This document shows, in pieces, positions 6,547 to 18,860 of a stretch of DNA of 64,000 bases (its first letter is position 1; each line of letters starts with the position of its first letter). The notes under the pieces were generated by a model. It made no database searches and was not told where the DNA came from. It saw nothing but the letters and a program-made list of their open reading frames with translations. Made by a program: the position numbers and the translations under genes. Location of the stretch: positions 417,033 through 481,032 of the forward strand of contig JAUCCA010000012.1 in the NCBI GenBank assembly GCA_034676525.1, given 5' to 3'. The stretch comes from Giesbergeria sp. GTDB taxonomy: Bacteria > Pseudomonadota > Gammaproteobacteria > Burkholderiales > Burkholderiaceae_C.

Positions 6547-7782
6547 TCAGTGCGTCGGCAACCCGTCCAGCTCCTCGCTTGTCGGCTCAGCCTGAGGCTC
6601 ACGATGTCGGCTGGCCAGCCAGGGGGCGGGGGCATGGGCAACCCGGTTGCGTCCTTGGCGCTTGGCCTCGTATAAAGCTTCGTCGGCCCGTGCCAAGGTG
6701 CTCTCAATAGGCTCGCCGCGGTGATGTGTCGTCCAGCCGATGGAGACCGTCATCTGGATTTTCTCCTCGCCCACAACCATCGACGTGTGCTCCAAGCTTC
6801 TGCGCAAGCGCTCAAGCAGTTCCGCCGCATGGGCTTGCCGGGTGTCACACAGCAACAATACGAATTCTTCCCCTCCCCAGCGGGCGAACACATCGCCGCT
6901 GCGCAGTTCACGGCCCACGACCTTCGCAAACAGCTGCAGCGCTCGGTCGCCGGCGTTGTGGCCGTGCTGGTCGTTGATGGCCTTGAAGTGGTCTATGTCG
7001 AGCTGCGCGAGCAGAAGGCTGCGTCCGCTTCGTTCACAGCGAAGCAGTTCCAGCGCCATCAGTTCGGACATCTGCCGTCTGTTGAACAAGCCCGTGAGCT
7101 CATCGCGCATGGCCAATTCGCGAATTTGCACCAGTGCGACCTCCAGCTCACGCTTTTGACCACGCAGACGCGCCCGAATGCTCTGTACCTGTAAGCACAT
7201 CAACGTGCCCGCAAGCAGAGACAACAGCACGATGGTGAGATGGGCTGCCACCACTGCAATGGAAGGCTTTGAAGCCTCAAGGTAAGCGGCGCCGAGCACG
7301 GCAAGCGAATACAGGCCCATCGAGTAGAGCATGAGGAACACCGTCTGGCGCCGGTCGCGCCCGAAGATACCGAACATCAAAATAATGACCAGCACCGGAA
7401 GCACGAGCGCACGAACTGGGCCGGCAATAACGTAGGCGACCGCATTGCACGTCAGTGCCCACTGCATCTGAAACAGCGTCATGGAAGGGTCCGCCATGCG
7501 TTCGCTGTAGCCGCTTCTCACCATGAGCAGCGCAGCAGCCAGCCCACCGACCGCAAACGCCGACCACCAGTTAACCAAGCGCGGATCCATGTCGCCACTG
7601 GCCGCCAGCACCCGCATCGCCAAGGCGCAACACACCATCATCAGAGTGGCCAGCCCGGCCATGGTGGTGCGGCGACGCCGCTTCTCCTCGCTTCCGAGCA
7701 GGCGCGTCAACCACTGCGATGCGGGGGTGGCAGATTGGGGCACGAGACGCGTTAAGGAGAATGGGGAGCGCAGACAAAACAT
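6547..7782 (-). CDS. Membrane-bound diguanylate cyclase
   Basis: Multi-TM N-terminus, DELTGLFNRR, RSGD I-site and RWGGEEF. Start uncertain (7782 or a downstream ATG). Confidence 0.9.
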   Translation of the reverse strand: MFCLRSPFSLTRLVPQSATPASQWLTRLLGSEEKRRRRTTMAGLATLMMVCCALAMRVLAASGDMDPRLVNWWSAFAVGGLAAALLMVRSGYSERMADPSMTLFQMQWALTCNAVAYVIAGPVRALVLPVLVIILMFGIFGRDRRQTVFLMLYSMGLYSLAVLGAAYLEASKPSIAVVAAHLTIVLLSLLAGTLMCLQVQSIRARLRGQKRELEVALVQIRELAMRDELTGLFNRRQMSELMALELLRCERSGRSLLLAQLDIDHFKAINDQHGHNAGDRALQLFAKVVGRELRSGDVFARWGGEEFVLLLCDTRQAHAAELLERLRRSLEHTSMVVGEEKIQMTVSIGWTTHHRGEPIESTLARADEALYEAKRQGRNRVAHAPAPWLASRHREPQAEPTSEELDGLPTH

Positions 7783-7818
7783 AGGGGTCCGCGCATTGTG
7801 GACCCCTATGTTACTTTT
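7772..7818. terminator. Perfect 11-bp hairpin with T-rich tails on both strands
   Basis: CATAGGGGTCC (7780-7790), 9-nt loop, GGACCCCTATG (7800-7810). Followed by TTTTGTCT on minus and TTACTTTT on plus. Confidence 0.6.
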
Positions 7819-7934
7819 CGTGTCAGACAACTGCCCGTCGGCTGGCAGCGCGCGGCGTGCCTGCGCTCCGAATGCGTGCATCGCGCACCTGCGCCACCCG
7901 CATGTTCACTGGTGGGCCTGCGCGCCTTTACTCT

Positions 7935-9872
7935 TTACGCTTTGGTGTCCAGCTCAGAAGCGATGATGGTTGGCGTGTGTGCTGCGGGCACAAACGCATC
8001 CGAGAAGCAGGCACCTTCTGCCAGACCCTGCGCAAGGAAAGCCGGCACAGCCGCGTCCACCATGCGCACGGAGCCACACAGGTACACCTCGTGACCGCTA
8101 AGGTCAGGGAAATCGGCCAGCATGGCTTCGTGGACCAATCCGGTGCGCCCCTTCCACCCATCGCCTTCGACCGACTCAGACACGACAGGCACCACGCTGA
8201 AGTTGCTGTGGTCGCTTTGCCACTGCTCGCAAAGCGCCAGCATGTACAGATCTTTGCTGTCGCGCACGCCCCAGTACAGGCGCATGGGCCGCGTAACGCC
8301 ACGGGCAAAGGCGTCTTCGACAATGCTCTTGATGGGTGCGAAACCCGTCGCGCCGGCAATAAAGAGAATCGGCTGTGCACCGTCGCGCAGCGTGAACTGA
8401 CCGCGCGGTCCTTCAAACTTGATGGTGTCGCCTACCTGCATGCCCTCAAACACGTGCGTGGTAAAGCGCCCACCCGGCACCAGCCGCACATGCAACTCGA
8501 TAAGTGCGTTGTTCTGCGGTGCATTTGCAAAGGAGAAGGCACGGCGCTCGCCGTTGTCCAGCACGATGTCGATGTACTGGCCGGCGTCAAAGGCCAGGCG
8601 ATCTGCGCCGGGGAGTTCAAGACGCAGGCGCATGACGTCTTCCGCCAAATGCTCCATGTGGACCACGCGCGCCTCGTACTGCGGAATTTCAACAGCGCTG
8701 GCGCCTGTAAACCCATCGACCGAAATGACGACGTCGCCGTTGGGCACCGCGCAGCACATCAGTGCCAGGCCGCGCGCCAACTGTGCATCGGACAGTGCCG
8801 CCTTCTGGTAGGGGCGGTGCTCGACCGTGCCCTGCTCCATGGTGCACATGCACAGCCCGCAGGCGCCGTTGCGGCACTCGTACGGCAAAGCAAGGCCGTC
8901 GCGCAGGCCCGCGTCAAGCAGCGTTTCGCCCGGGCGCAAGCTGAACTCAGCAGCGTTGCCGCCCTCGCCGCGCACGGTGGCGTGCAGGGTGCCTTGACCC
9001 TTTCGGCGGGGCTGCGGCCACAGCGGCAACAAGAGCAGGACGACCGTCAACACAGACACCAGCGCCCACACCCGCCCCAGCGGCCACTCGCTCAGCAGCG
9101 GATACAGCGCAAGCAGGAACCAGTCAAGCTTCACGTCCATCACGGCTTTGGCCAAGTCGGCTGCACCGCCTTGGCTCTGAACGGGCGCTACCAATGCCAT
9201 CACCAGAAACGTGACAACCAAGCCAATGATGGTTTCCCGTGGCGGCGTGGTGCGGGCCTTGGGCACCCGCTGCACGTGAATCCACATGACGAGCAGCACG
9301 ACCAGCGGCAGACCAATGTGCAGGAAAGAAAGCAGCGAGAAGAAGCGGTCGCTCACGCTGTCGGCATACACAAAGTTGCGCATCAGCGTGCCGCTAAACG
9401 GCGGCAGCCAGTCGAGCATTTCGAAGCTGGTAACCGTGACGTACTGCGCCAGCGCGTCCCACGGCAGCATGTAGCCATTGATGCCCGAGGCATAGACCAA
9501 CCAGATCAATGCGACCCCGGTGACCCAAGAGAACCAGCGGAAACCGTGGAAAAGATCAAACGCGAAATACCGCAGCATGTGCAGCATCATGGTAAGCACC
9601 ATGGCGTCCGATGCGTAGCGGTGCACGCTGCGCAGGATGCCGCCCAGCCACCACTGACCGTTGGTCAGCGACTCGACGGAATCGTATGCGCCCGAGACAC
9701 CGGTTTCAAAGAACGCATACAAATACAGCCCGGTACCGCCGACGATCCAGAAAAGAAAGAACGTGATCGAACCGAGGTGGTACAGAGGGTTGATGCGATC
9801 GCCAAAGGCACGATTGAACAGCGCCTCAACGCGCATGAACATCCACTGCAGGATCGATTGGAACGCTTTCAT
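7935..9872 (-). CDS. Fusion: cytochrome b (b/b6-type) + [2Fe-2S] ferredoxin + FAD/NAD(P)H reductase (FNR-like)
   Basis: Four heme-b His (SVHRY..MLHML, FLHIG..WIHVQR). CRNGACGLC...MCC ferredoxin. RAFSFAN, GPRGQF, AGATGFAP and YLCGS FNR motifs. Confidence 0.88.
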   Translation of the reverse strand: MKAFQSILQWMFMRVEALFNRAFGDRINPLYHLGSITFFLFWIVGGTGLYLYAFFETGVSGAYDSVESLTNGQWWLGGILRSVHRYASDAMVLTMMLHMLRYFAFDLFHGFRWFSWVTGVALIWLVYASGINGYMLPWDALAQYVTVTSFEMLDWLPPFSGTLMRNFVYADSVSDRFFSLLSFLHIGLPLVVLLVMWIHVQRVPKARTTPPRETIIGLVVTFLVMALVAPVQSQGGAADLAKAVMDVKLDWFLLALYPLLSEWPLGRVWALVSVLTVVLLLLPLWPQPRRKGQGTLHATVRGEGGNAAEFSLRPGETLLDAGLRDGLALPYECRNGACGLCMCTMEQGTVEHRPYQKAALSDAQLARGLALMCCAVPNGDVVISVDGFTGASAVEIPQYEARVVHMEHLAEDVMRLRLELPGADRLAFDAGQYIDIVLDNGERRAFSFANAPQNNALIELHVRLVPGGRFTTHVFEGMQVGDTIKFEGPRGQFTLRDGAQPILFIAGATGFAPIKSIVEDAFARGVTRPMRLYWGVRDSKDLYMLALCEQWQSDHSNFSVVPVVSESVEGDGWKGRTGLVHEAMLADFPDLSGHEVYLCGSVRMVDAAVPAFLAQGLAEGACFSDAFVPAAHTPTIIASELDTKA

Positions 9873-11329
9873 GAAGAAACCACCATTTCGCTGGCAGCGG
9901 GCAGGCCCGCGCCTGGATGGCGACGCATCGCGCGCACTGCCACCACAATGAACAAAACACCACCCACGATGGCAACCAGACCCCCCAGGCCCATCAACGC
10001 CATGCCTGCGACTTCCGCATTGGAGCGCAAGACCTGCTCAGCGCCCGCCACTTTGCGCTGTACGCCGTAGCCGCCCGACCACACCAATCCAACAATGTGC
10101 ATCAGCTGGCCGAGGCCATAAACCCAAGGCTGTGCAACCGCCAAGCGCCCCTTAGGCGCTGCGTATCCGAGGAATGGCAGCAGGTGGTACACGAGCCCCA
10201 TAAGCGCGAGCGTCACACCGACGATGCAGCCGTGGTAGTGCGCAGGGATGCGCACATTGCTGCCGCTGATGAAGATCCCGATCACCCCGCCGGCACCAAA
10301 CAGCAATATCGAAGACAGCACGGCAGCGCGCAGCGGGTGTTGCGTGTCGCGTGTGAGCGGCAAGCGGTACAGCGCCACGACCACCGCCAACGCCACCGGC
10401 ACGATGGCGGTGCCGCCGCCTGCGCGCATCGCCCACGTCAACAGCGCGCGGTGTTCCACCGAGCTGATGTCGTAGGCAAGGTAGGCCCAAGGCGTCACAA
10501 ACACGCCCACCAATGCCAACGCGAACATAAACAAAGTGACACGCGGACTCAGCCGCAAGGTCGCGCCGCAGGCATTCGCCAGCCACAGCCACCCCACCAA
10601 CATGAGCAGCGTCCAGGTGAATTGCAGCGCGTGGCCCCCACCCCAAAACAAAATCTCGTAATACGCTTTGCCGGTCAGCGAGAGCGGCAATTGCACAAAC
10701 GACCAGCCAAACGCGAGGAGCGCGACCACTGTGGCCACCGCTGCCGCGCCCAAGCCAAAGCCCAGCGCACCTCGGCCATCAAACGCCGTACCGAGGCGTG
10801 GCGCGGCCAAGATGCCGCGCAGCGCGAGCACACCGACACCCAGACCAAAAACCACAAGACCACCGAGGAACATCGGTGAGCGCAACACGGGAATGTAATT
10901 GGCCATGATCGGCTCGCCCGCGTTCAGGAAGGGCGCGAGCGTCATGGCGGCTGTGCCGATGGCACAGATCCAAAGCGCAGCCCACCCCCAACGCAGACCC
11001 TGGGCGGTGCCGTACAGACTCCAGAGCAGGCCCGCCATCGCCATGAACCACACGAGGACCGACAGGTCCACATGCAGCACCAAGGAAACATGAAAAAAGT
11101 CGGCTGCAGGTAGCAGCCGGTTTACGCCCGGTGTACGCGAGAGCACCAGCAGAATGGAAAAGAGGCCAGAGCCCACCAGCGCCACTAGGCCAAGCCACAA
11201 CCAGCCTCGTGCCAAGCTGCGGCGCGCATCCTGCGGGACGGCAAGCGAATAGTCTGCCGCGGCTGAGGCGGGCACGGGCCTAGCAGACCCGCCGGCGACA
11301 CCAATGGAAGACGGAGCGACCGCGCTCAT
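9869..11329 (-). CDS. Divergent heme-copper oxidase subunit I-like membrane protein lacking the helix VII His-His pair
   Basis: Multi-TM. LVLHVDLS (helix II His), FWGGGHALQF (helix VI His) and IPAHYHG (helix X HxH) are kept; the HH pair aligns to AY. Confidence 0.75.
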   Translation of the reverse strand: MSAVAPSSIGVAGGSARPVPASAAADYSLAVPQDARRSLARGWLWLGLVALVGSGLFSILLVLSRTPGVNRLLPAADFFHVSLVLHVDLSVLVWFMAMAGLLWSLYGTAQGLRWGWAALWICAIGTAAMTLAPFLNAGEPIMANYIPVLRSPMFLGGLVVFGLGVGVLALRGILAAPRLGTAFDGRGALGFGLGAAAVATVVALLAFGWSFVQLPLSLTGKAYYEILFWGGGHALQFTWTLLMLVGWLWLANACGATLRLSPRVTLFMFALALVGVFVTPWAYLAYDISSVEHRALLTWAMRAGGGTAIVPVALAVVVALYRLPLTRDTQHPLRAAVLSSILLFGAGGVIGIFISGSNVRIPAHYHGCIVGVTLALMGLVYHLLPFLGYAAPKGRLAVAQPWVYGLGQLMHIVGLVWSGGYGVQRKVAGAEQVLRSNAEVAGMALMGLGGLVAIVGGVLFIVVAVRAMRRHPGAGLPAASEMVVSS

Positions 11330-11829
11330 AGCAACACGATGCCTCCGCGTTCGGCATCGAAGTCAATGACCAGCACTTGTGAAGGTTTGAGATTCACAGT
11401 CGCTTCGTGCTGGTGGTTAAACCCGTCGGTCGCGTTGGTGTCGCGCATACGCACCGTAATGCGGTGCGTGCCAGCGCCGACCTCCAGGCGCTTGTAGACA
11501 GTGGAAGCACCATCGCGCGAGAGCCCTGACGGTGCGGCGGTGTGGCGATAGGCAGGCTTACCGTCGATGTCGAGCTCCACCGTCACGGAAGCACGTTCGC
11601 GCTCGCACTTGAGTGGCGCGCGCATGTTGGGCGCCAACTTGGCGAGCTCCTCTGCCGTATAGGGGCGGCACTCTGCAACGCGCTGCCCGTGGTGGACGAA
11701 GCTCAGCTTGATGAGCGCCTCATCCGCCGCGAGCGGCGAGAACGCTGGCCACTGCGAAAAAACGCCTACCAGCAGCGCAAAACTGCCGTACAGCAGTGCT
11801 TGGCCTGCGAGGACGAAAACGCGATTCAT
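11326..11829 (-). CDS. Membrane-anchored hypothetical protein (one TM, beta-rich soluble domain, 2 Cys)
   Basis: 4-nt overlaps with both neighbours; N-terminal hydrophobic helix; HHG and C..C motifs. Confidence 0.8.
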   Translation of the reverse strand: MNRVFVLAGQALLYGSFALLVGVFSQWPAFSPLAADEALIKLSFVHHGQRVAECRPYTAEELAKLAPNMRAPLKCERERASVTVELDIDGKPAYRHTAAPSGLSRDGASTVYKRLEVGAGTHRITVRMRDTNATDGFNHQHEATVNLKPSQVLVIDFDAERGGIVLL

Positions 11830-13490
11830 GCAAAAGACTCCGAATGGACAAAAGATTCTGCCGTGCGCACGCGCAGGGCCTTGAGCGCGGCCGCGAGCGC
11901 GGCCTCATCACCAGCATCGACGGCAACCAGCGACCAAGCTTCCTTCGGTACGCTGGCACGCAGGCGTGGCTCACGTTGACCGTTAAGACGCTCGCGCGTC
12001 CAGCGCTCACCCAGCCGAAATTCGCAGCCGCCTTCACGACAAGTCGCCACCAGCACGCCAGTGGCGCCTGCACGCAAGGCGTATTCAAGAAACGATGGCG
12101 GCAGCAAACCTGTGCACACCAGCGGCAGCGTCAAGACATCGTCCGCGGCAACCCCGGCCAGCTGCGCGCCTTGCGCACAGCCAAACACCACAAAGCGCTG
12201 AGACCCTGAAAGTGCCGCAAGACCAGCCAGCATCTGCTGGCGCAATGCATCAATCGGCCATTGCGGCATGTCGATACCAGTATGCAGCACCTGCGCGCTG
12301 CGAAACGGCGTGGACGATGGGCAAGAGCCCACGCAAATGCCGCAACTGGCACACAAGTCGCTGCGCACCTGCGCCAGCTCCATGCCCACACGGCCGTTGG
12401 GATGCGGCACCATGGTGATCGCCGCGTAAGGGCAGTCTTCGACGCAGCGCCGGCAGCCGCTGCAGTGGTCGGGGTTGACCTCAGCGACCGCTTGCTCCAG
12501 CGCCAGTGGACGCCACGCGGTATGCGAAGTGGCGGGTGCGCCCAAATTTGACAGAAGCGCCGGCGCTACTGCCAACGCGGGGCGGCGACGCAGACCCAAC
12601 CATGGCAAAGCCACAAGCACAGCCATCACCAGCCCGAGCAGGCCCCACACCGCTCCCGCGGATGTGGCTGCGGTCAGGGGATGGATGAAAAGCAGCCACC
12701 AGTCGTACGCCAGCGCTTGCGGCACGGTGCTCAAGTCTGCGGGACCCTGACTGCGCACTGGCAAGAAGGCCGCGAGCATAAGCATGGCCAATAGCGTGCC
12801 AATTGCCAGCGTGCGCGGCGGGAACACTGAAGCGCGACTAATGCGCTGCACGTGGAACCACAAACCAAACACCAGCAAAAGGGGCACGCCCAAGTGCACA
12901 AAGACGAACAGCGAGAACAGCCGGTCGTTCAACTGCGTGCCACTCAGAAAATTGCGCGCCAGCGGCGAGGCCAGCCCGGGCAGTACATCAAGCCACTCGG
13001 CTGTCGCTGTGGCGGAAAACTGCCCGAGGCGGTCCCAGTTCAGCCAGAAGCCGCCAATCGCAGAAACGAAAAGGAGCGGCAGCAGCGGGACGCCCGTCAG
13101 CCAAGACGCTGCGCGAAAACTCCGAAATCGCCCCAACATCCATTCGCGCAGCACGTGCGCCAGCACCACCACGACCATGGCGTCGGCGCTGTAGCGGTGC
13201 AGGCCGCGCAGCAGGCTGCCCCACTGCCTAGGCTCGCGCGACAACGCATCAATTGATTGGTAGGCGCCACTGGCTGAGGTGTCGAGCACGGCATACAGAA
13301 TCACTCCGCTGAACACCAGAAGCCACAGCAACCAGAAACCCAGCGCACCCAGATGCTTGAGAGGATTGCCACTGACTCCCGCCAGTGCGTCGAATCCGTG
13401 CTCGCACGCGCGCCAAAGCCTTGCCGACGCGTGCGGCGCCACCGCAATGGGGAGCGAACTGGAAGAGGCAGCCATATGCGGCGAATTCAC
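11826..13490 (-). CDS. Fusion: cytochrome b + 2x[4Fe-4S] ferredoxin + MvhD/FlpD-like [2Fe-2S] domain
   Basis: Four heme His (GLHRY..LAHVL, FVHLG..WFHVQR). CSGCRRCVEDCP and CASCGICVGSCP. C-terminal VFGC...VCTG...GATGVLVATCREGGCEF matches the MvhD pattern. Confidence 0.85.
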   Translation of the reverse strand: MNSPHMAASSSSLPIAVAPHASARLWRACEHGFDALAGVSGNPLKHLGALGFWLLWLLVFSGVILYAVLDTSASGAYQSIDALSREPRQWGSLLRGLHRYSADAMVVVVLAHVLREWMLGRFRSFRAASWLTGVPLLPLLFVSAIGGFWLNWDRLGQFSATATAEWLDVLPGLASPLARNFLSGTQLNDRLFSLFVFVHLGVPLLLVFGLWFHVQRISRASVFPPRTLAIGTLLAMLMLAAFLPVRSQGPADLSTVPQALAYDWWLLFIHPLTAATSAGAVWGLLGLVMAVLVALPWLGLRRRPALAVAPALLSNLGAPATSHTAWRPLALEQAVAEVNPDHCSGCRRCVEDCPYAAITMVPHPNGRVGMELAQVRSDLCASCGICVGSCPSSTPFRSAQVLHTGIDMPQWPIDALRQQMLAGLAALSGSQRFVVFGCAQGAQLAGVAADDVLTLPLVCTGLLPPSFLEYALRAGATGVLVATCREGGCEFRLGERWTRERLNGQREPRLRASVPKEAWSLVAVDAGDEAALAAALKALRVRTAESFVHSESFA

Positions 13491-14347
13491 ATTCGGCGAG
13501 GTCGCCCACGGTTGCGCCGACTCGCCCGCAATTCATTGATGAAGAACACGATCATGACAATGAAAAAAGTGATGCCACCTGCCACCTGGATCGGTAAGGT
13601 GTAGTCCGCTCGGTACTCGCCTGTCTTGATGTCGTACACCGTGCACACGAGGCGAATGCGCTCGAACAGCGTGTCGAGCACGCGGTCATGGAAAACAGGA
13701 GAGCCAGCCAGAAGCAGCCGAAGGGGTTCGCCCAGATCGGCGGCATTGAGTTGCTCGCCATAGATTTGCCGCACGATGCGGCCTTGCGAATCCACCAGGC
13801 TGAGCTGCAGAACGTGGTCAAAACCGGCAGGCGTAGATTTGTACAAAAAACCAAAATCGCGCGTCAACGCCGGCACGTCTGCCGCGCGGGGGCTAAGGAA
13901 TTCCCAGTTGTCTCTGCCGATACGAAACTGCGCGGCAAATGCCTTGAGCGCTTCTGGAGAATCCTCTGGCTGGTTAAAGCCAATACTCACGACATTGAAT
14001 TGGCCCGGGCCGACACTCTTTTGCAATGCGTCGACGGCAATCTGCAGCGCACGCGTTGTGCCGGGACAGATTTGGAAACAACCGGTGTAGATGAAGCTCA
14101 CCAGCAGGGGTTTGCCGCGATAGCTTGAAAGCGACACCGTGCGGCCCGAGCGGTCGCGGAACAAATGCTCGCCCAGCTCCCTCCCGACTGCGTCTTCGCT
14201 CGCGCGCAATGCGAGGCGCGCGTCAAGCCCGAGCGTGGCGGCCTGCTCAGAGCCGTGCGTGATCGCTTGCGCGGGCAGCGACAGCAGGCATGCCCACCCC
14301 ACCACCCACACCAGCACCAGGGCAGTCAGGGAGCGGGATCGACACAT
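13487..14347 (-). CDS. SCO1/SenC-family copper chaperone
   Basis: FIYTGCFQICP (CxxxC), FDHVL His, thioredoxin-like fold and C-terminal TM. Confidence 0.9.
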   Translation of the reverse strand: MCRSRSLTALVLVWVVGWACLLSLPAQAITHGSEQAATLGLDARLALRASEDAVGRELGEHLFRDRSGRTVSLSSYRGKPLLVSFIYTGCFQICPGTTRALQIAVDALQKSVGPGQFNVVSIGFNQPEDSPEALKAFAAQFRIGRDNWEFLSPRAADVPALTRDFGFLYKSTPAGFDHVLQLSLVDSQGRIVRQIYGEQLNAADLGEPLRLLLAGSPVFHDRVLDTLFERIRLVCTVYDIKTGEYRADYTLPIQVAGGITFFIVMIVFFINELRASRRNRGRPRRM

Positions 14348-14360
14348 AGCAAACTCTCGT

Positions 14361-15260
14361 TCAACGGATCAGGCCGTCCACACAGGCGGCCACGAGCAAG
14401 GTGCTCAATTGGATCAAAGAGGCAAAAAACGCCGACATCGCGTGCGCACGCGTCACTTCGCGCGCCAGCACCCAAGATTTGTACACAAAATGCGCACCGC
14501 CGAAGAATGCGCCAACGGCATACACAGGGCCTGCGCCGTAGAACACAGGAAGCAAAGACGCCACCAACAGTGCGACGGTGCTGACGAACACAATGTGCGC
14601 TGCCCGCTCGTTGCCTACCACCACCGGCAACATTGGCACACCGGCTTGCGCATAGTCGGCGCGGTTGGCAATCGCCAGCGCCCAAAAGTGCGGCGGCGTC
14701 CAGAGAAACAGCACCAACGCAAGCAGCATCGGCAGCGGCCCCAGCGCAGGATCGACTGCCGCGGCGCCTGCCAACACGGCAAAACTGCCGGCCAAGCCGC
14801 CAATCACGATGTTCATGGAGCTGCGGCGCTTGAGCCACACCGTATACACAAAAGCGTAGAAGAAAGCGCCAAGAAACACATAGACGGCAGCAGCGCCGTT
14901 GAGCACCAACCACGCCGCTGCCACCGACCCCACGAGCATGGCGGCCATCAGCACCAACCACGCGGGGTGGTGTGGCAGCGCGCCGGTGACAAAAGCACGC
15001 CGACGCGTGCGCGCCATTAGATGGTCGCTGTTGTGTTCAAAGTACTGATTGAACGCGCCTGCACTGGCGGAAGCCACCAACACAGACAGCGCCAACACCA
15101 GCACCTGAAGCCAGCTGGGCGCTGGGCCAGGTGTTACCACCATGCCCACCAGCGCCGTCACCATGATGAGCGAGCCTATGCGCAGCTTGAACAACGAGAT
15201 GACGTCGCGCGTGCGCTGCACGGCCAGGCTGCGCGCGGGTTGAATCGTGTCGGTGCCCAT
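14361..15260 (-). CDS. ctaB: Protoheme IX farnesyltransferase (heme o synthase)
   Basis: LFKLRI, NQYFEHNSDHLMARTRRR, YTVWLKRR and LWTPPHFWAL. Start at ATG 15260. Confidence 0.92.
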   Translation of the reverse strand: MGTDTIQPARSLAVQRTRDVISLFKLRIGSLIMVTALVGMVVTPGPAPSWLQVLVLALSVLVASASAGAFNQYFEHNSDHLMARTRRRAFVTGALPHHPAWLVLMAAMLVGSVAAAWLVLNGAAAVYVFLGAFFYAFVYTVWLKRRSSMNIVIGGLAGSFAVLAGAAAVDPALGPLPMLLALVLFLWTPPHFWALAIANRADYAQAGVPMLPVVVGNERAAHIVFVSTVALLVASLLPVFYGAGPVYAVGAFFGGAHFVYKSWVLAREVTRAHAMSAFFASLIQLSTLLVAACVDGLIR

Positions 15261-15274
15261 GGCTTGGCTTTCTT

Positions 15275-17002
15275 TCAGGACATGCCCCACAGCTGGGCGA
15301 GGTACTTCCAGTTGATGAAGTAGTACAGCACGAATGCCACCAGGAACACCATGGCCAGCACGAAGCTTCCAGGTGCTACCAAGCCAGCCGACCCGTAAGT
15401 CTGCGCAGCCGCTGTACGTGCAGTCGGTGGAATCGGCGTGAAGCGTGGACTCACAACACCTTGATCGAGCTTCTTGCCCCACAGCAACGAACCGACCGTG
15501 ATGTAGATGTACAGAGCGCCGCCGGCGATGGCCGCCATACCGCCAATACCTACGAGGCCCATCATCAGATAGGCAGCGCCTGGCCATTCATACGCCAGTG
15601 CCGCGCCGCTGAACGCCATGTCCCAGTGCCTGCGCGAGACGCCCAAGGTGCCGGCACCCATCATGACCAAGCAGAAGAAGTACATCGAGAAACCGAAGAG
15701 GTAAGGCTGAATTTTTGCCAGCCCCGGAGAGATGGTTTCGCGCTTGAACAGCACTGGAATCAGGTAGTACGTGAGCGCCATGAACGTCAGCGTCGTGCCG
15801 ACCACCACAGTTGCATGGAAGTGACCAGGCACATAAATGGTGTTGTGAATGATCAGGTTGAGCTGCTCGGTACCCATCATGACGCCCGAAATACCGCCCA
15901 GGAAGCCAAAGCCGACGATGGAGATGAACACACCTGAGAACGTCGGGTTGCCCCAAGGCGCTTTGCGCAGCCACTCAAACAGGCCCTTGTTGTAGCCCTT
16001 GGCGCGTTGCGCCACTTCCATGGCACCGGGAACGGTCAAGCCGTGGATCATCGAAGCCAACACAGCGAAATACATGAAGTAGCTGGTGTTAACGATTTTC
16101 CACTCGGTACTCACACCCGGGTCGGCAAGCAGGTGGTGCGCACTAGCAAGCTGCAAAAACAAGATGTAAAGCAGGAAGGCGCCGCGACTGACGCGCTCGG
16201 ACATGGGCTTGGCGCCAAAACAAACCGCAGCTACCAGGTACCAGATCGAGATGTGCGCCGCTACGTTAATCTGCTGCGACGAGTGACCGAAGGCCCACCA
16301 GATGGTCCGGTAGATCAGCGGGTCGACGTTGTCGATCAGGCCAAGCGCCAGAAGATAGGTGGGGATCAGGATGATCGCGCCAGAGACGATGGTGAACACT
16401 GCAATGATGGCCGCAACGATGGCGCCGAACGTCACCAGCGGCACCGAGCCCTGATAGGTCTTGTCGCGCTTGGCTACCACCAGCGTGCCAAAGAACACGA
16501 AGCAAGCGATCAATGCGCCGACCGCAAAGAGGATCAGACCCAGGTAAAACCAAGGCGTGGCCATCATGGGCACATAAGACGTCATCATCACGCTGGAGCC
16601 GCCGCGGAACACGTCGATGTTGTTCATGACGGCGCCGACCAGCATGAGCGCGTAGGCCAACCATGCCATTTTGGGCGTGGCGATTCGACAGCGCAGCAGC
16701 GTTGAGGCACAGAAATACAGCACCGCGACCTCAAAGAAGATCATCCAGAAGATGAGCATGTTGATGCCGTGCGCGGTAAGCACCAGATAGAACGTGTCGG
16801 CGGCCAGCCAGTGCACGGCGGGCCAGCGCGTCAGCACCACGCCGATGGCGAGGATGCCGCCAACGAGCAAGGCGACCACAGCGGTCACCGCGTTGAAGAT
16901 CATCAGACGTTCGGCGCTGCGTTCGAACTGAAGGCCCGAACGCGGGCAAGTACGGTAGGTGGTGGCGCTGCCTGAGGCGAGCGCAGCAGAAGTTGCGGCC
17001 AT
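15275..17002 (-). CDS. Heme-copper oxidoreductase subunit I, B-family-derived, eNOR-type nitric oxide reductase
   Basis: All six His present (TAHG, GHSSQQIN, SAHH, GHFH). The H+4 Tyr of O2 reductases is Gln (codon 16271-16273). No cytochrome c subunit; partner is a CuA subunit II. Confidence 0.82.
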   Translation of the reverse strand: MAATSAALASGSATTYRTCPRSGLQFERSAERLMIFNAVTAVVALLVGGILAIGVVLTRWPAVHWLAADTFYLVLTAHGINMLIFWMIFFEVAVLYFCASTLLRCRIATPKMAWLAYALMLVGAVMNNIDVFRGGSSVMMTSYVPMMATPWFYLGLILFAVGALIACFVFFGTLVVAKRDKTYQGSVPLVTFGAIVAAIIAVFTIVSGAIILIPTYLLALGLIDNVDPLIYRTIWWAFGHSSQQINVAAHISIWYLVAAVCFGAKPMSERVSRGAFLLYILFLQLASAHHLLADPGVSTEWKIVNTSYFMYFAVLASMIHGLTVPGAMEVAQRAKGYNKGLFEWLRKAPWGNPTFSGVFISIVGFGFLGGISGVMMGTEQLNLIIHNTIYVPGHFHATVVVGTTLTFMALTYYLIPVLFKRETISPGLAKIQPYLFGFSMYFFCLVMMGAGTLGVSRRHWDMAFSGAALAYEWPGAAYLMMGLVGIGGMAAIAGGALYIYITVGSLLWGKKLDQGVVSPRFTPIPPTARTAAAQTYGSAGLVAPGSFVLAMVFLVAFVLYYFINWKYLAQLWGMS

Positions 17003-17017: not shown

Positions 17018-17557
17018 CTATTTGACGTAGAGGCGCCCCACCATCGTGTGGTGGTTGATGCCGCAAAACTCGTTACAAACGATGGAGAACTGACCCGATT
17101 GATTGGGCGTAATCTTCATCACGTGCTCATACCCAGGCACCACCTGGATGTTGATGTTGGTCGGCTGCAGAGAGAAGCCGTGGTTGTAATCCATAGAAGT
17201 CATGTGCAGCTTGTAGGTTTTGTCTTTTTCAAGCTCAAGAATGGGCCACCAGGACCACAGACGCCCGATGAGATAGATGTCGCTGCCCTCAGGCGGATGC
17301 ACGACGGGAATCTTTTCGTCGGTCTCGGTGCGGACGGTGTACTTGTCGACCATGGCCTGCGTCTTGGCAGCAAACATGTCCGGCGTCGTCTTGTAGGTTT
17401 CGGTGGAGAGGTTCTGCTTGCCGTAGATGTGCCAGCCGACCATCATGAAGAACATGACCATGCACCAAGCAAAGGCGATGGCGATCCAGAGGCCTTCGAC
17501 GCGGTCCAGGGGATGTTTCCACCAGAGCCGTTCGGCGGGGGGAAGAATTGCGCTCAT
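17018..17557 (-). CDS. CuA-containing subunit II (single TM, ba3/eNOR-type)
   Basis: DYNHGF and CNEFCGINHHTM CuA ligands; one N-terminal TM helix. Confidence 0.92.
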   Translation of the reverse strand: MSAILPPAERLWWKHPLDRVEGLWIAIAFAWCMVMFFMMVGWHIYGKQNLSTETYKTTPDMFAAKTQAMVDKYTVRTETDEKIPVVHPPEGSDIYLIGRLWSWWPILELEKDKTYKLHMTSMDYNHGFSLQPTNINIQVVPGYEHVMKITPNQSGQFSIVCNEFCGINHHTMVGRLYVK

Positions 17558-17573: not shown

Positions 17574-17729
17574 TTACTTGGCCATGGGAATGGTCAAGAT
17601 TTCGATCACCCCCCACAGTGAGTACACGACCATCGGGACCATCACCCCGATGAACAGTAACAAAAAAGGGTTGTCGAGCAGCTGCTGAATCATCGGCACC
17701 TTCTCGTTTTCGTCGTTATCGTGTTCCAT
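17574..17729 (-). CDS. Small single-TM protein (subunit IIa-like), 51 aa
   Basis: GAGGAG RBS before ATG 17729; one hydrophobic helix; first gene of the operon. Confidence 0.75.
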   Translation of the reverse strand: MEHDNDENEKVPMIQQLLDNPFLLLFIGVMVPMVVYSLWGVIEILTIPMAK

Positions 17730-17788: not shown

Positions 17789-17802
17789 TTGATCTGCGAC
17801 AA
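17789..17802 (-). promoter_or_regulatory. FNR/DNR/NnrR-type box
   Basis: TTGATCTGCGACAA versus consensus TTGAT-N4-ATCAA (2 mismatches). Centred about 41 nt upstream of a start inferred from a GACAAT -10-like hexamer (17767-17762). Confidence 0.65.
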
Positions 17803-17894: not shown

Positions 17895-18860
17895 ATGCAC
17901 GCACCTTCCTCCCCTGACCCCGCGCCGCATCGGCGCCTTTTTTTGCGCCGTGCGGCCTGGATTTGTGCTGTTTTGGTGCTGGTGGTGACAAGCGCCAGCG
18001 CTTTTTTGCGTCAATCTGGCGCCGGTCTGGGTTGCACACCGTGGCCCGCCTGCCACGCCAGCGCGGCGCGCGCCGACGTCGAACGCCCTGCGCCCAGCGC
18101 GGCTGAGCACACGGCTCGCGCCGTGCACCGAGTCGTCGCTTCGTCCTTATTGCTTCTGCTGATGGCCATGACGGCCTTTGCCTGGACAGGCAAGCCGCGG
18201 TTGGCGGTAGAAGGGCGCGTGGTCTTGGTGGCCCTCGGGCTGGTGCTGTTCCTTGCGGTGCTTGGCGTCTTCACTGCCAAGGCTCGCGCGCCAGCGATCA
18301 CCCTTGGCAATCTGTTGGGAGGCCTGCTGCTGTTTGCCGCGTGTGTCCGGCTCGCCGTTACCGCGTGTGCCATCGCCGAACCGCAGCGCAAACACCTGCA
18401 GCGCTGGGCGCTCGTGTCCGGCACCCTGTTGCTCGTGCAGATCGGTTTGGGCGCACTGATCAGCGCCGGGTATGCAGGGTTGAGCTGCCCCGAGCTAAGC
18501 AGCTGCAGCCCAGGCGCCCATGCTTGGGAAGCGTTGAGCCTGCTTCACCCACCCGGAGATGGGGCTGGAATGCCCGGTTATGCGGAGGGCGTTGGCATCC
18601 AACTCCTGCACCGCCTCGCGGCGTTGGCAGTGATGGTGGCGCTTGCAGCATTGGCAAGGTCCGCGTGGCAGGCCCGGCGGCGAGTCGAGGCGGCTGCGCT
18701 CGGGGTGCTCGCTGTACTTCAAGTGGGTTTGGGTGCGACGCTGGTGCTCAGTCAATTGCCGCTGGGCGCAGCGCTTGCGCACAACCTGGTTGCCGCGCTG
18801 CTGCTGGGAACGGTGGCGGCACTCATCGCAGCATCCGCGCGGGTGTCGCCTCGGTTGTGA
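17895..18860 (+). CDS. ctaA: Heme A synthase (CtaA/COX15 family)
   Basis: SGAGLGCTPWPAC, HRVVA, AGLSCPELSSC, HRLAA and AHNL; 8-TM pattern; divergent from the oxidase operon. Confidence 0.82.
   Translation: MHAPSSPDPAPHRRLFLRRAAWICAVLVLVVTSASAFLRQSGAGLGCTPWPACHASAARADVERPAPSAAEHTARAVHRVVASSLLLLLMAMTAFAWTGKPRLAVEGRVVLVALGLVLFLAVLGVFTAKARAPAITLGNLLGGLLLFAACVRLAVTACAIAEPQRKHLQRWALVSGTLLLVQIGLGALISAGYAGLSCPELSSCSPGAHAWEALSLLHPPGDGAGMPGYAEGVGIQLLHRLAALAVMVALAALARSAWQARRRVEAAALGVLAVLQVGLGATLVLSQLPLGAALAHNLVAALLLGTVAALIAASARVSPRL

What the first reader, a model, noticed from the sequence alone, without database searches (positions are those of the whole stretch)
7935..9872. Cytochrome b fused to a complete NAD(P)H-FAD-[2Fe-2S] reductase
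Seen: the C-terminal ~340 aa has the plant-type ferredoxin plus FNR layout. Established: this layout is typical of the reductase components of soluble oxygenases and of AscD/RfbI. Inference: it is a single-polypeptide NAD(P)H-to-heme-b wire. Reductases of this type often serve hydroxylating enzymes, so the partner could be heme modification (ctaA and ctaB are adjacent) rather than bulk respiration.
Basis: partly seen in the sequence, partly recalled or inferred. Interest (0 to 1): 0.7.

Follow-up and report, generated by a model that had tools for sequence, protein, structure and literature searches.

The report
NAD(P)H reductase-cytochrome b fusion of eNOR operon
This is a real, conserved membrane protein that joins a two-haem cytochrome b to a cytoplasmic NAD(P)H-flavin-iron-sulfur reductase; it is the last gene of an unusual nitric-oxide-reductase (eNOR) operon and probably links NAD(P)H to that system, but the fusion has been catalogued before and its function has never been tested.

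Summary
ORF 7935-9872 (minus strand, 645 aa) is a six-helix di-haem cytochrome b followed by a plant-type [2Fe-2S] domain and FAD and NAD(P)H domains. All cofactor ligands are invariant in 71 orthologues, and topology places the reductase in the cytoplasm.

The gene closes a translationally coupled operon: small IIa-like ORF, CuA subunit II, subunit I with Gln at the cross-link Tyr position (eNOR diagnostic), CtaB, SCO1, a second cytochrome b fused to 2x[4Fe-4S]+FlpD, a 167-aa protein, a CuB-less subunit-I paralogue, then this gene.

In 301 genomes of the order, 39 carry the fusion. All 39 are among the 40 that carry eNOR (p = 2e-48). In another lineage the same operon slot holds a cytochrome b fused to a CPR-type diflavin NADPH reductase instead.

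Best reading (about 0.45): an optional NAD(P)H-oxidising input arm for the eNOR module, running NAD(P)H to FAD to [2Fe-2S] to haem bH to haem bL.

The fusion type was catalogued in 2014 and 2017 and discussed in a 2026 preprint. This is a new member of a known, uncharacterised kind.

The parts
7935..9872 (-). cybFNR: 645-aa fusion of a di-haem cytochrome b with a [2Fe-2S]-FAD-NAD(P)H reductase (the finding)
   Evidence: ORF and translation. Five Pfam domains above cut-off. AlphaFold2 model with a 136-sequence alignment: mean pLDDT 90.6, pTM 0.74.
9003..9872 (-). Cytochrome b module, residues 1-290: helices A-D (b6-like, four haem His) plus helices E and F with the Qo-type ef-loop motif L-D250-W251-F
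   Evidence: PF00033 and PF13631 hits. Hydropathy and positive-inside analysis. Helices 29-53, 74-104, 110-134, 175-201, 212-228 and 265-284 in the model. H84, H98, H185, H199, D250 and W251 are invariant across 136 sequences of both paralogue classes.
8721..8987 (-). Plant-type [2Fe-2S] ferredoxin domain, residues 296-384, starting about 10 residues after helix F
   Evidence: PF00111 hit. C333, C338, C341 and C373 are invariant.
8394..8681 (-). FAD-binding beta-barrel, residues 398-493 (R444-A-F-S447 motif)
   Evidence: PF00970 hit. Alignment to GcoB (5ogx), BenC (1krh) and Fre (1qfj).
7992..8369 (-). NAD(P)H-binding Rossmann domain, residues 502-627 (G-A-T-G-F-A-P, C599-G600, C-terminal F627)
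   Evidence: PF00175 hit. Conserved motifs. Fold matches to NqrF, Fre and cytochrome b5 reductase.
9869..11329 (-). COX1-like protein, 486 aa: a subunit-I paralogue that keeps the haem ligands (H86, H364, H366) and one helix-VI His (H233) but has PWAY in place of the helix-VII His pair. Its stop overlaps the cybFNR start (ATGA).
   Evidence: PF00115 hit, E = 8e-11. Conservation across 77 orthologues. Pairwise alignment to subunit I. Junction sequence.
11326..11829 (-). p167: 167-aa protein with one N-terminal hydrophobic helix and two conserved Cys. No family match. It always accompanies the cytochrome b fusions.
   Evidence: No Pfam or NCBIfam hit. Synteny. Conservation.
11826..13490 (-). cybFer4: paralogous cytochrome b (40% identical over 273 aa to the cybFNR membrane module) fused to 2x[4Fe-4S] and an FlpD/MvhD domain
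   Evidence: Pfam hits. Pairwise alignment.
13487..14347 (-). SCO1/SenC copper chaperone
   Evidence: PF02630 hit.
14361..15260 (-). CtaB, haem O synthase
   Evidence: TIGR01473 at 260 bits, above its cut-off of 210. Start codon checked.
15275..17002 (-). eNOR-type haem-copper subunit I (helix VI reads WWAFGHSSQQIN, with Gln at H+4)
   Evidence: PF00115 hit. Best solved relatives are ba3-type oxidases, where Y aligns to Q. Gln is the eNOR diagnostic (PMC8756737).
17018..17557 (-). CuA subunit II (C-x-E-x-C-G-x2-H-x2-M)
   Evidence: PF00116 and TIGR02866 hits. Sequence.
17574..17729 (-). 51-aa single-helix ORF, IIa-like, first gene of the operon
   Evidence: Translation. A gene of 51-65 aa is called at the same place in L001, L003 and L085.
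17789..17802 (-). FNR/Dnr-type box TTGTCGCAGATCAA (8 of 10 consensus positions), about 60 bp upstream of the first ORF
   Evidence: Pattern search. A box matching at least 8 of 10 positions lies at the equivalent place in 48 of 63 orthologous loci, against 2 of 63 control regions.
17895..18860 (+). CtaA/COX15-type haem A synthase, divergently transcribed
   Evidence: PF02628 hit.

Best explanation
The gene encodes an accessory electron-input arm of the eNOR nitric-oxide-reductase module.

Shown from sequence:
- It is a six-helix cytochrome b with two bis-His b haems, bH near the cytoplasmic face and bL near the periplasmic face.
- It is tethered by about 10 residues to a cytoplasmic BenC/NqrF-type reductase ([2Fe-2S], FAD, NAD(P)H).
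- It is translationally coupled to p167, a CuB-less subunit-I paralogue and a second cytochrome b fusion.
- It is found only in genomes that have eNOR.

Inferred:
- Electrons flow NAD(P)H to FAD to [2Fe-2S] to haem bH to haem bL.
- They leave on the periplasmic side to the eNOR system, either through a quinone bound at the conserved Qo-like pocket (invariant D250-W251) or through the haems of the COX1-like protein to CuA.
- NO reduction can then be driven from cytoplasmic NAD(P)H without depending on the bc1/cytochrome c route.
- The arm is optional. eNOR works without it in other lineages.
For: Architecture and ligands.

Cytoplasmic location of the reductase:
- Four positively charged cytoplasmic segments against acidic periplasmic loops.
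- Homology to b6 plus helices E and F of subunit IV. The chain ends after helix F on the n side.

Operon:
- Four consecutive 4-nt start/stop overlaps run from SCO1 to cybFNR.
- The same gene order occurs in nearly all of 80 species loci with enough flank.

Co-occurrence:
- 39 of 39 fusion-bearing genomes carry eNOR subunit I.
- 39 of 40 eNOR genomes carry the fusion, and 261 genomes have neither. Fisher p = 2.3e-48.

Direction of flow:
- In L085 the same operon slot holds the same cytochrome b module fused to flavodoxin-FAD-NAD(P)H, a CPR-type reductase. By established knowledge this enzyme class runs NADPH to acceptor.
- The closest solved relatives of the reductase half (GcoB, BenC, T4moF, CarAd, NqrF, Fre) are all NAD(P)H oxidisers.
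- Electron movement from the n side to the p side is favoured by the membrane potential (inference).

Denitrification setting:
- The genome has nirS, and eNOR is its only NOR-type haem-copper enzyme.
- A conserved FNR/Dnr-type box lies upstream of the operon.
- Relatives sit beside nirS and NnrS.
- Orthologous proteins were detected in the proteome of a denitrifying Fe(II) oxidiser (bioRxiv 10.64898/2026.01.22.701106).
Against: - There is no biochemical or genetic test for any member of the family.
- Sequence cannot fix the direction of flow. The only paper that discusses these genes proposes the opposite direction, quinol:NAD+.
- The invariance of D250-W251 in the Qo-type motif across both paralogue classes points to quinone chemistry rather than a simple haem wire.
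- 49 eNOR genomes of other orders lack the fusion. Eight of 19 inspected clusters have no cytochrome b gene at all. eNOR therefore does not need it.
- The partner cybFer4 has no flavin, so a common donor is not obvious.
- NADH versus NADPH preference was not resolved.
Confidence: 0.45

Rival explanations
1. Reverse, bifurcating operation. Quinol is oxidised at the Qo-like pocket. One electron goes to the very high-potential eNOR branch. The other runs bL to bH to [2Fe-2S] to FAD to NAD(P)+. NO reduction then pays for making NAD(P)H, as a quinol:NAD(P)+ oxidoreductase supercomplex.
For: - This was proposed for the orthologous genes of Ferrigenium straubiae, a lithoautotroph that needs uphill NADH synthesis.
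- The Qo-type D-W pair is invariant.
- No Rieske protein is present, but a CuA enzyme is encoded next door.
- An analogous, also untested, proposal exists for anammox Rieske/cytochrome b complexes with NAD(P) oxidoreductase subunits (PMC5600118).
Against: - The low-potential electron would have to move from the p side to the n side against the membrane potential, and then uphill to about -320 mV (inference).
- Most carriers are organoheterotrophic Comamonadaceae and Alcaligenaceae with no evident need for it (lifestyle from general knowledge).
- The CPR-type replacement in L085 belongs to a class that works only as an NADPH oxidiser.
Confidence: 0.2
2. NAD(P)H:quinone reductase at an n-side (Qi-like) site, comparable to FNR bound to cytochrome b6f in cyclic flow. 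Electrons go NAD(P)H to FAD to [2Fe-2S] to bH to pool quinone. The link to eNOR is only co-regulation.
For: - Di-haem cytochromes b commonly couple one-electron Fe-S wires to quinone (PMC5600118).
- FNR is a reported subunit of b6f (the same paper cites Zhang et al. 2001).
- NqrF shows that this reductase type feeds a quinone reductase.
Against: - Strict genomic co-occurrence with eNOR, and translational coupling to p167 and the COX1-like protein, argue for a physical complex.
- The organism already has standard respiratory-chain components, including a bc1 cytochrome b.
- Conservation is strongest at the p-side Qo-type motif. No Qi-type residue was identified.
Confidence: 0.13
3. Maturation role. 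The fusion supplies reducing equivalents to haem A(s) synthase CtaA or another assembly step of eNOR, as ferredoxin and ferredoxin reductase do for Cox15 in mitochondria (general knowledge).
For: - ctaA, ctaB and SCO1 lie in or beside the cluster.
- eNOR uses haem As in both sites, and many eNOR operons carry ctaA (PMC11214002).
- How haem A is made under near-anoxic denitrifying conditions is an open question.
Against: - 49 eNOR genomes have no such fusion, and minimal clusters have only II-I-(CtaB)-SCO1.
- Castellaniella-type clusters keep the fusion without ctaB.
- About ten loci keep it with no ctaA in the fetched flank.
- The constant neighbours are p167 and the COX1-like protein, not CtaA.
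- CtaA is the least conserved gene of the cluster, at 37-73% identity.
Confidence: 0.12
4. The fusion serves the COX1-like haem protein as a separate enzyme. An example would be an NAD(P)H-dependent NO- or O2-handling haem protein distinct from eNOR turnover.
For: - The COX1-like gene directly precedes and overlaps cybFNR.
- Its haem ligands and several polar motifs are invariant in 77 orthologues.
Against: - Some clusters have a cytochrome b fusion plus p167 without the COX1-like gene.
- No catalytic metal site is evident.
- There is no precedent.
Confidence: 0.07

Closest known systems
[quoted passage not shown] 2017, PMC5600118)
   Same: The same kind of protein: a cytochrome b with an xDWF Qo motif, no Rieske partner, and a C-terminal fusion to non-Rieske Fe-S or flavin domains. 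Kao & Hunte list an Alicycliphilus denitrificans cytochrome b fused to ferredoxin plus a flavin oxidoreductase, and 4Fe-4S/MvhD fusions in Magnetospirillum and Turneriella. An Alicycliphilus protein is 69% identical over the full length here.
   Different: Those papers only catalogue the sequences and state that the functions are unknown. They do not report the link to eNOR, the operon partners or the CPR-type variant. The motif here reads LDWF.
Cytochrome b-[Fe-S]-FAD-NADH protein in the eNOR operon of Ferrigenium straubiae (bioRxiv 10.64898/2026.01.22.701106)
   Same: The same domain architecture and the same operon setting, with eNOR II and I, haem O synthase, SCO1 and a second cytochrome b-[Fe-S] protein. 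The proteins were detected in a proteome.
   Different: The authors call the two cytochrome b genes unusual and propose quinol:NAD+ activity in a lithoautotroph. Here the gene is in a nirS-carrying Comamonadaceae-type genome, and I favour the forward direction. Orthology by sequence could not be checked, because their sequence was not at hand.
NqrF of Na+-NQR; BenC, GcoB, T4moF and CarAd three-domain reductases
   Same: An N-terminal plant-type [2Fe-2S] domain followed by FAD and NAD(P)H domains. Matches: 5ogx E = 6e-53, 1krh E = 4e-41, NqrF E = 7e-24. NqrF is likewise membrane-anchored and injects NADH electrons into a membrane chain.
   Different: NqrF has a single anchor helix, and BenC-type proteins are soluble and serve oxygenases. 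None is fused to a haem protein. Scores are below every NCBIfam equivalog cut-off, and no oxygenase gene is nearby.
NADPH oxidase / ferric reductase (NOX, FRE) family
   Same: The same working logic: a cytoplasmic FNR-type NAD(P)H domain fused to a membrane domain with two stacked b haems that span the bilayer.
   Different: The membrane domain is not homologous. It is cytochrome b/b6 (PF00033), not the ferric-reductase domain, and no such Pfam hit was found. An extra [2Fe-2S] domain is present. This is an analogy only.
Cytochrome b homologues inside haem-copper oxidase operons of Sulfolobales (SoxC/SoxG), and Rieske/cytochrome b complexes with NAD(P) oxidoreductase subunits in anammox bacteria
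   Same: A bc-type cytochrome b is encoded with, and presumed to be complexed to, a terminal haem-copper enzyme or an NAD(P)-binding Fe-S flavoprotein. There is a weak NCBIfam hit to SoxC (E = 2e-7). The anammox case is discussed in PMC5600118.
   Different: There the reductase is a separate subunit and a Rieske protein is present (anammox), or there is no cytoplasmic reductase at all (Sox). Here there is no Rieske protein and the fusion is covalent.

Membership tests
Cytochrome b of bc1/b6f type (PF00033) | Profile match above the curated cut-off | tested here: met
   66.8 bits against a cut-off of 27.2. PF13631 scores 58 bits against 27. Cytochrome b6 chains match at E = 7e-19.
Cytochrome b of bc1/b6f type (PF00033) | Two His pairs, each 14 positions apart, in helices B and D (ligands of haems bL and bH) | tested here: met
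   H84/H98 and H185/H199 are invariant in 136 sequences.
Cytochrome b of bc1/b6f type (PF00033) | Qo motif (PEWY or a lineage variant) in the ef loop | tested here: met
   The motif is L-D250-W251-F252. D and W are invariant across both paralogue classes. xDWF is a recognised variant (PMC4122944).
Canonical Rieske/cytochrome b complex | A Rieske [2Fe-2S] protein and a high-potential cytochrome encoded with cytochrome b | tested here: not met
   None of the ten neighbouring proteins has a Rieske or cytochrome c domain. The genome's true bc1 cytochrome b lies elsewhere, at C8:2416941.
Cytochrome b6 with haem cn | N-terminal Cys (CxGG) that binds haem cn covalently | tested here: not met
   There is no Cys in residues 1-332.
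BenC-type (FNR-like, N-terminal Fer2) oxygenase reductases | Cx4Cx2C...C cluster motif, RxYS-type FAD motif and GxxGxxP NAD(P)H motif, in that order | tested here: met
   C333/C338/C341/C373, R444-A-F-S447 and G507-A-T-G-F-A-P513. Aligns end to end with 5ogx and 1krh.
BenC-type (FNR-like, N-terminal Fer2) oxygenase reductases | Score above the equivalog cut-off, and a partner oxygenase in the neighbourhood | tested here: not met
   BenC 212 bits against 430, MmoC 193 against 500, AntC 186 against 402. No oxygenase gene is in the operon.
NqrF (TIGR01941) | Score above the cut-off, within an nqrA-F operon | tested here: not met
   102 bits against a cut-off of 295. No nqr genes are adjacent.
PDWF-FeS clade / subfamily H cytochrome b fusions | Cytochrome b fused C-terminally to a non-Rieske Fe-S or flavin domain, with an xDWF motif and no Rieske gene in the cluster | tested here: met
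   Placement on the published tree was not tested. A 69%-identical full-length Alicycliphilus protein links it to the catalogued example.
eNOR operon (accessory gene) | Neighbouring subunit I has Gln at the cross-linked Tyr position, with a CuA subunit II | tested here: met
   The motif is GHSSQQ, and Y of ba3 aligns to Q. The diagnostic comes from PMC8756737. The CuA motif is present. The same motif occurs in all 30 relatives inspected.
eNOR operon (accessory gene) | NO reductase activity and haem As content of the neighbouring enzyme | not testable with these tools
   Shown only for the Rhodothermus marinus enzyme (PMC11214002).
sNOR (norSY-senC-orf1) | Asn at the active-site position | tested here: not met
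   Gln, not Asn, is at H+4.
NOX/FRE ferric-reductase family | Ferric-reductase transmembrane domain | tested here: not met
   No such Pfam hit. The membrane domain is PF00033.

The most novel reading that the evidence does not exclude
The two cytochrome b fusions, p167, the CuB-less subunit-I paralogue and eNOR form one membrane supercomplex that couples cytoplasmic pyridine nucleotide directly to NO reduction. It would work either as an NAD(P)H:NO oxidoreductase that bypasses the quinone pool, bc1 and cytochrome c, or as a Rieske-less bifurcating quinol oxidase that makes NAD(P)H at the expense of NO reduction. Either would be a respiratory-chain design with no characterised precedent.
Probability: 0.3. 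Interest if true: 0.8.

Novelty: new member of a known kind. Interest (0 to 1): 0.5.

Why it matters
eNOR is a recently recognised source of N2O, and its natural electron donor is unknown. In Burkholderiales almost every eNOR genome carries this fusion. Understanding it would show how a large group of wastewater, soil and groundwater denitrifiers feed electrons to NO reduction, and whether that step conserves energy.

It would also give the first function for cytochrome b 'subfamily H'. It would test whether a bc-type cytochrome b can work without a Rieske protein.

For this window itself the gene is one more orthologue of a protein family already noted in the literature.

Tried and rejected
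- A first AlphaFold2 run with 71 close orthologues gave an unusable membrane domain (pLDDT 62.8). Adding the paralogue class fixed this. Model coordinates cannot be read, so the distance between the [2Fe-2S] cluster and the haem could not be measured.
- The fold search found no solved chain that covers both halves (best TM-score normalised to the query 0.36).
- NADH versus NADPH preference: the beta2-loop sequence (YWGVRDSKDLY) resembles NADH-using GcoB and BenC and dual-specific Fre, but it varies among orthologues. This is left unresolved.
- Autotrophy of the host: the only RuBisCO-family hit scores 217 bits and may be a RuBisCO-like protein. This is inconclusive.
- Clade I nosZ is absent. 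Clade II was not searched.
- sNOR identity was rejected, because the active-site residue is Gln, not Asn.
- A periplasmic location was rejected on topology.
- A general respiratory NADH dehydrogenase was rejected on co-occurrence.
- Supplementary files of PMC11214002 are not held.
- No sigma-70 promoter or intrinsic terminator was convincingly found around the gene.
Full report
**Observation**

The window has an ATG-started ORF at exactly 7935-9872 on the minus strand, 645 aa. Pfam finds five domains, all above their gathering scores:
- Cytochrome_B (residues 25-201) and Cytochrom_B_N_2.
- Fer2 (305-377).
- FAD_binding_6 (401-493).
- NAD_binding_1 (504-608).

NCBIfam aligns residues 311-629 end to end with BenC, MmoC and AntC reductases, but far below their equivalog cut-offs. 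The closest solved structures match each half separately:
- GcoB (5ogx), BenC (1krh), Fre, T4moF, CarAd and NqrF for the reductase.
- Cytochrome b6 for the membrane part.

No solved chain covers both halves (best TM-score normalised to the query 0.36).

**Anatomy**

Hydropathy and charge distribution give six transmembrane helices. The N-terminus, the B-C and D-E loops and the segment after helix F are positively charged, and the other loops are acidic. A second AlphaFold2 run with a 136-sequence alignment gave mean pLDDT 90.6 and pTM 0.74, with helices at 29-53, 74-104, 110-134, 175-201, 212-228 and 265-284. A first run with 71 close orthologues had failed for the membrane part.

By homology to b6 plus the first two helices of subunit IV, the chain leaves the membrane on the n side. 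The [2Fe-2S] domain begins about 10 residues later, so the reductase is cytoplasmic.

Residues invariant in 71 orthologues:
- H84/H98 and H185/H199.
- C333/C338/C341/C373.
- R444 and S447.
- T509-G-F-A-P513.
- C599-G600 and F627.

Across 136 sequences that also include the paralogous Fer4 fusions and a CPR-type fusion, the four His, R81, D89, D139, N166 and the D250-W251 pair of the Qo-type motif (LDWF here) stay invariant. There is no Cys before residue 333, so there is no haem cn site.

**Surroundings**

The gene is the last of a minus-strand operon:
- A 51-aa IIa-like ORF (17574-17729).
- CuA subunit II (17018-17557).
- Haem-copper subunit I (15275-17002).
- CtaB (14361-15260).
- SCO1 (13487-14347).
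- A second cytochrome b fused to 2x[4Fe-4S] and FlpD/MvhD (11826-13490). Its membrane module is 40% identical to that of cybFNR.
- A 167-aa protein with no family match (11326-11829).
- A 486-aa subunit-I paralogue (9869-11329).

CtaA is divergently transcribed (17895-18860). From SCO1 to cybFNR, every junction is a 4-nt ATGA or GTGA overlap. This suggests coupled translation and a stoichiometric complex.

Subunit I is ba3-like, but the cross-linked Tyr is replaced by Gln (GHSSQQ). That is the published diagnostic of eNOR (PMC8756737). eNOR from Rhodothermus marinus is a demonstrated NO reductase that contains haem As (PMC11214002).

The subunit-I paralogue keeps the helix II and helix X His residues and one helix VI His. 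It has PWAY where the helix VII His pair should be. These features are conserved in 77 orthologues.

The genome has nirS. Its only other haem-copper enzymes are one aa3-type and two cbb3-like oxidases, so eNOR is its only NOR-type enzyme.

**Comparative evidence**

At least 563 species genomes encode a relative. The best 80 are full length (61-90% identity) and come from Comamonadaceae-type genera, Alcaligenaceae and some Xanthomonadales. The closest are Giesbergeria and Simplicispira, at about 90%.

In nearly all loci with enough flank the order is CtaA | II-I-(CtaB)-SCO1-(cybFer4)-p167-COX1like-cybFNR.

In an even sample of 301 genomes of the order:
- 39 have the full-length fusion.
- 40 have eNOR subunit I.
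- All 39 fusion genomes are among the 40 (Fisher p = 2.3e-48).
- The one exception ends its operon after the COX1-like gene.

In a phylum-wide sample, 49 further genomes carry an eNOR subunit I. All 30 inspected read GHSSQQIN, and none has the fusion. Their clusters are of three kinds:
- Minimal, II-I-(CtaB)-SCO1.
- Extended by cybFer4-p167.
- Extended by two cybFer4 paralogues, p167, the COX1-like gene and CtaA.

In one metagenomic lineage the last slot is filled by the same cytochrome b module fused to flavodoxin, FAD_binding_1 and NAD_binding_1. This is a CPR-type diflavin reductase, and it is followed by NnrS. Another relative lies beside nirS.

So the cytochrome b/p167 unit is an optional accessory of eNOR. 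Its second cytochrome b carries interchangeable cytoplasmic heads, and two unrelated kinds of these heads are NAD(P)H oxidases.

A TTGAT-N4-ATCAA (FNR/Dnr-type) box lies about 60 bp upstream of the first ORF (17789-17802, 8 of 10 positions). A box matching at least 8 of 10 positions lies at the equivalent place in 48 of 63 orthologous loci, against 2 of 63 control regions.

**Mechanism**

Shown:
- Cofactor sites for NAD(P)H, FAD, [2Fe-2S] and two transmembrane-stacked b haems sit in one chain.
- The reductase is on the cytoplasmic side.
- The genetic linkage to eNOR is obligatory.

Inferred: electrons run NAD(P)H to FAD to [2Fe-2S] to bH to bL. They leave on the periplasmic side towards eNOR, through a quinone at the conserved Qo-like pocket or through the COX1-like haems to CuA.

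I favour this forward direction for three reasons:
- Every characterised relative of the reductase half oxidises NAD(P)H.
- A CPR-type head can replace it.
- The membrane potential assists n-to-p electron movement.

I give this reading about 0.45.

The main rival (0.2) is the reverse, bifurcating quinol:NAD+ scheme proposed for the Ferrigenium straubiae orthologue, whose proteins were seen in a proteome.

An n-side NAD(P)H:quinone reductase (0.13) fits poorly with the strict eNOR linkage.

- eNOR genomes exist without the fusion.
- Clusters keep the fusion without ctaB or a nearby ctaA.
- p167 and the COX1-like protein, not CtaA, are the constant neighbours.

It remains testable by haem LC-MS in a mutant.

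**Comparison with what is known**

The fusion is not new to the literature:
- Kao & Hunte (2014) listed an Alicycliphilus denitrificans cytochrome b fused to ferredoxin and a flavin oxidoreductase, together with 4Fe-4S/MvhD fusions, as the 'PDWF-FeS clade'.
- Dibrova et al. (2017) placed such large proteins in 'subfamily H' with functions 'yet to be established'.
- A 2026 preprint describes both cytochrome b genes in an eNOR operon.

It works like NqrF or NOX: a membrane-anchored FNR-type reductase feeding a membrane haem or Fe-S chain. It is a member of neither family.

- The quantitative co-occurrence with eNOR.
- The map of cluster variants.
- The CPR-type replacement.
- The conserved regulator box.
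- A confident fold.

**Verdict**

This is a real feature and was correctly described. It is a new member of a known but functionally uncharacterised kind. Interest is moderate, because the function is an open and experimentally accessible question about how eNOR is wired.

Noticed in passing
window 17789-17802 (minus strand), and the equivalent place in L001-L083: A TTGAT-N4-ATCAA (FNR/Dnr/NnrR-type) box lies about 60 bp upstream of the first ORF of the eNOR operon. A box matching at least 8 of 10 positions is found in 48 of 63 orthologous loci, against 2 of 63 control regions.
   Followed up: partly
window 9869-11329 (-): The subunit-I paralogue keeps the haem ligands (H86, H364, H366) and one helix-VI His, but has PWAY instead of the helix-VII His pair. 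It is strongly conserved in 77 orthologues, including a VEHR motif and a GYGVQRKVAG motif. Its function is unknown.
   Followed up: partly
window 11326-11829 (-): The 167-aa protein has one N-terminal helix and two conserved Cys and matches no family. It accompanies every cytochrome b fusion seen, even in clusters that lack the COX1-like gene. It may be the partner subunit of cytochrome b.
   Followed up: partly
L085:10001-12484, and its flank up to about 18800: The same cytochrome b module is fused to a CPR-type flavodoxin-FAD-NAD(P)H reductase in an eNOR-type operon. That operon also carries PCuAC-like, CtaG and SCO1 genes. It is followed by NnrS, a Crp-family regulator, hemerythrin and DUF2249.
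   Followed up: partly
genomes G001-G300 (for example G054:C80:49432-50394): A stand-alone Fer2-FNR protein of about 345 aa, about 50% identical to residues 308-632 of the fusion, is present in nearly every genome of the order (286 of 301 with E <= 1e-40). It is the likely source of the fused reductase. Its own role was not examined.
   Followed up: no
L003:11990-17201: In a relative, the cluster is followed by UbiD, a flavoprotein (UbiX-like), SCP2 and two peptidase-U32 genes, the set known for O2-independent ubiquinone synthesis.
   Followed up: no
window 7778-7812: A 16-bp-stem palindrome (AACATAGGGGTCCGCG...CGTGGACCCCTATGTT type) lies between the cybFNR stop and the body of the GGDEF gene. 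It falls inside the long N-terminal extension of ORF 6547-7881. The true GGDEF start may lie downstream of it, and it may act as a terminator.
   Followed up: no
genome C8:2632121-2633878 (-): A second cbb3-like subunit I (WWYGHNVLG) carries a roughly 130-aa N-terminal extension that resembles a fused small membrane protein.
   Followed up: no
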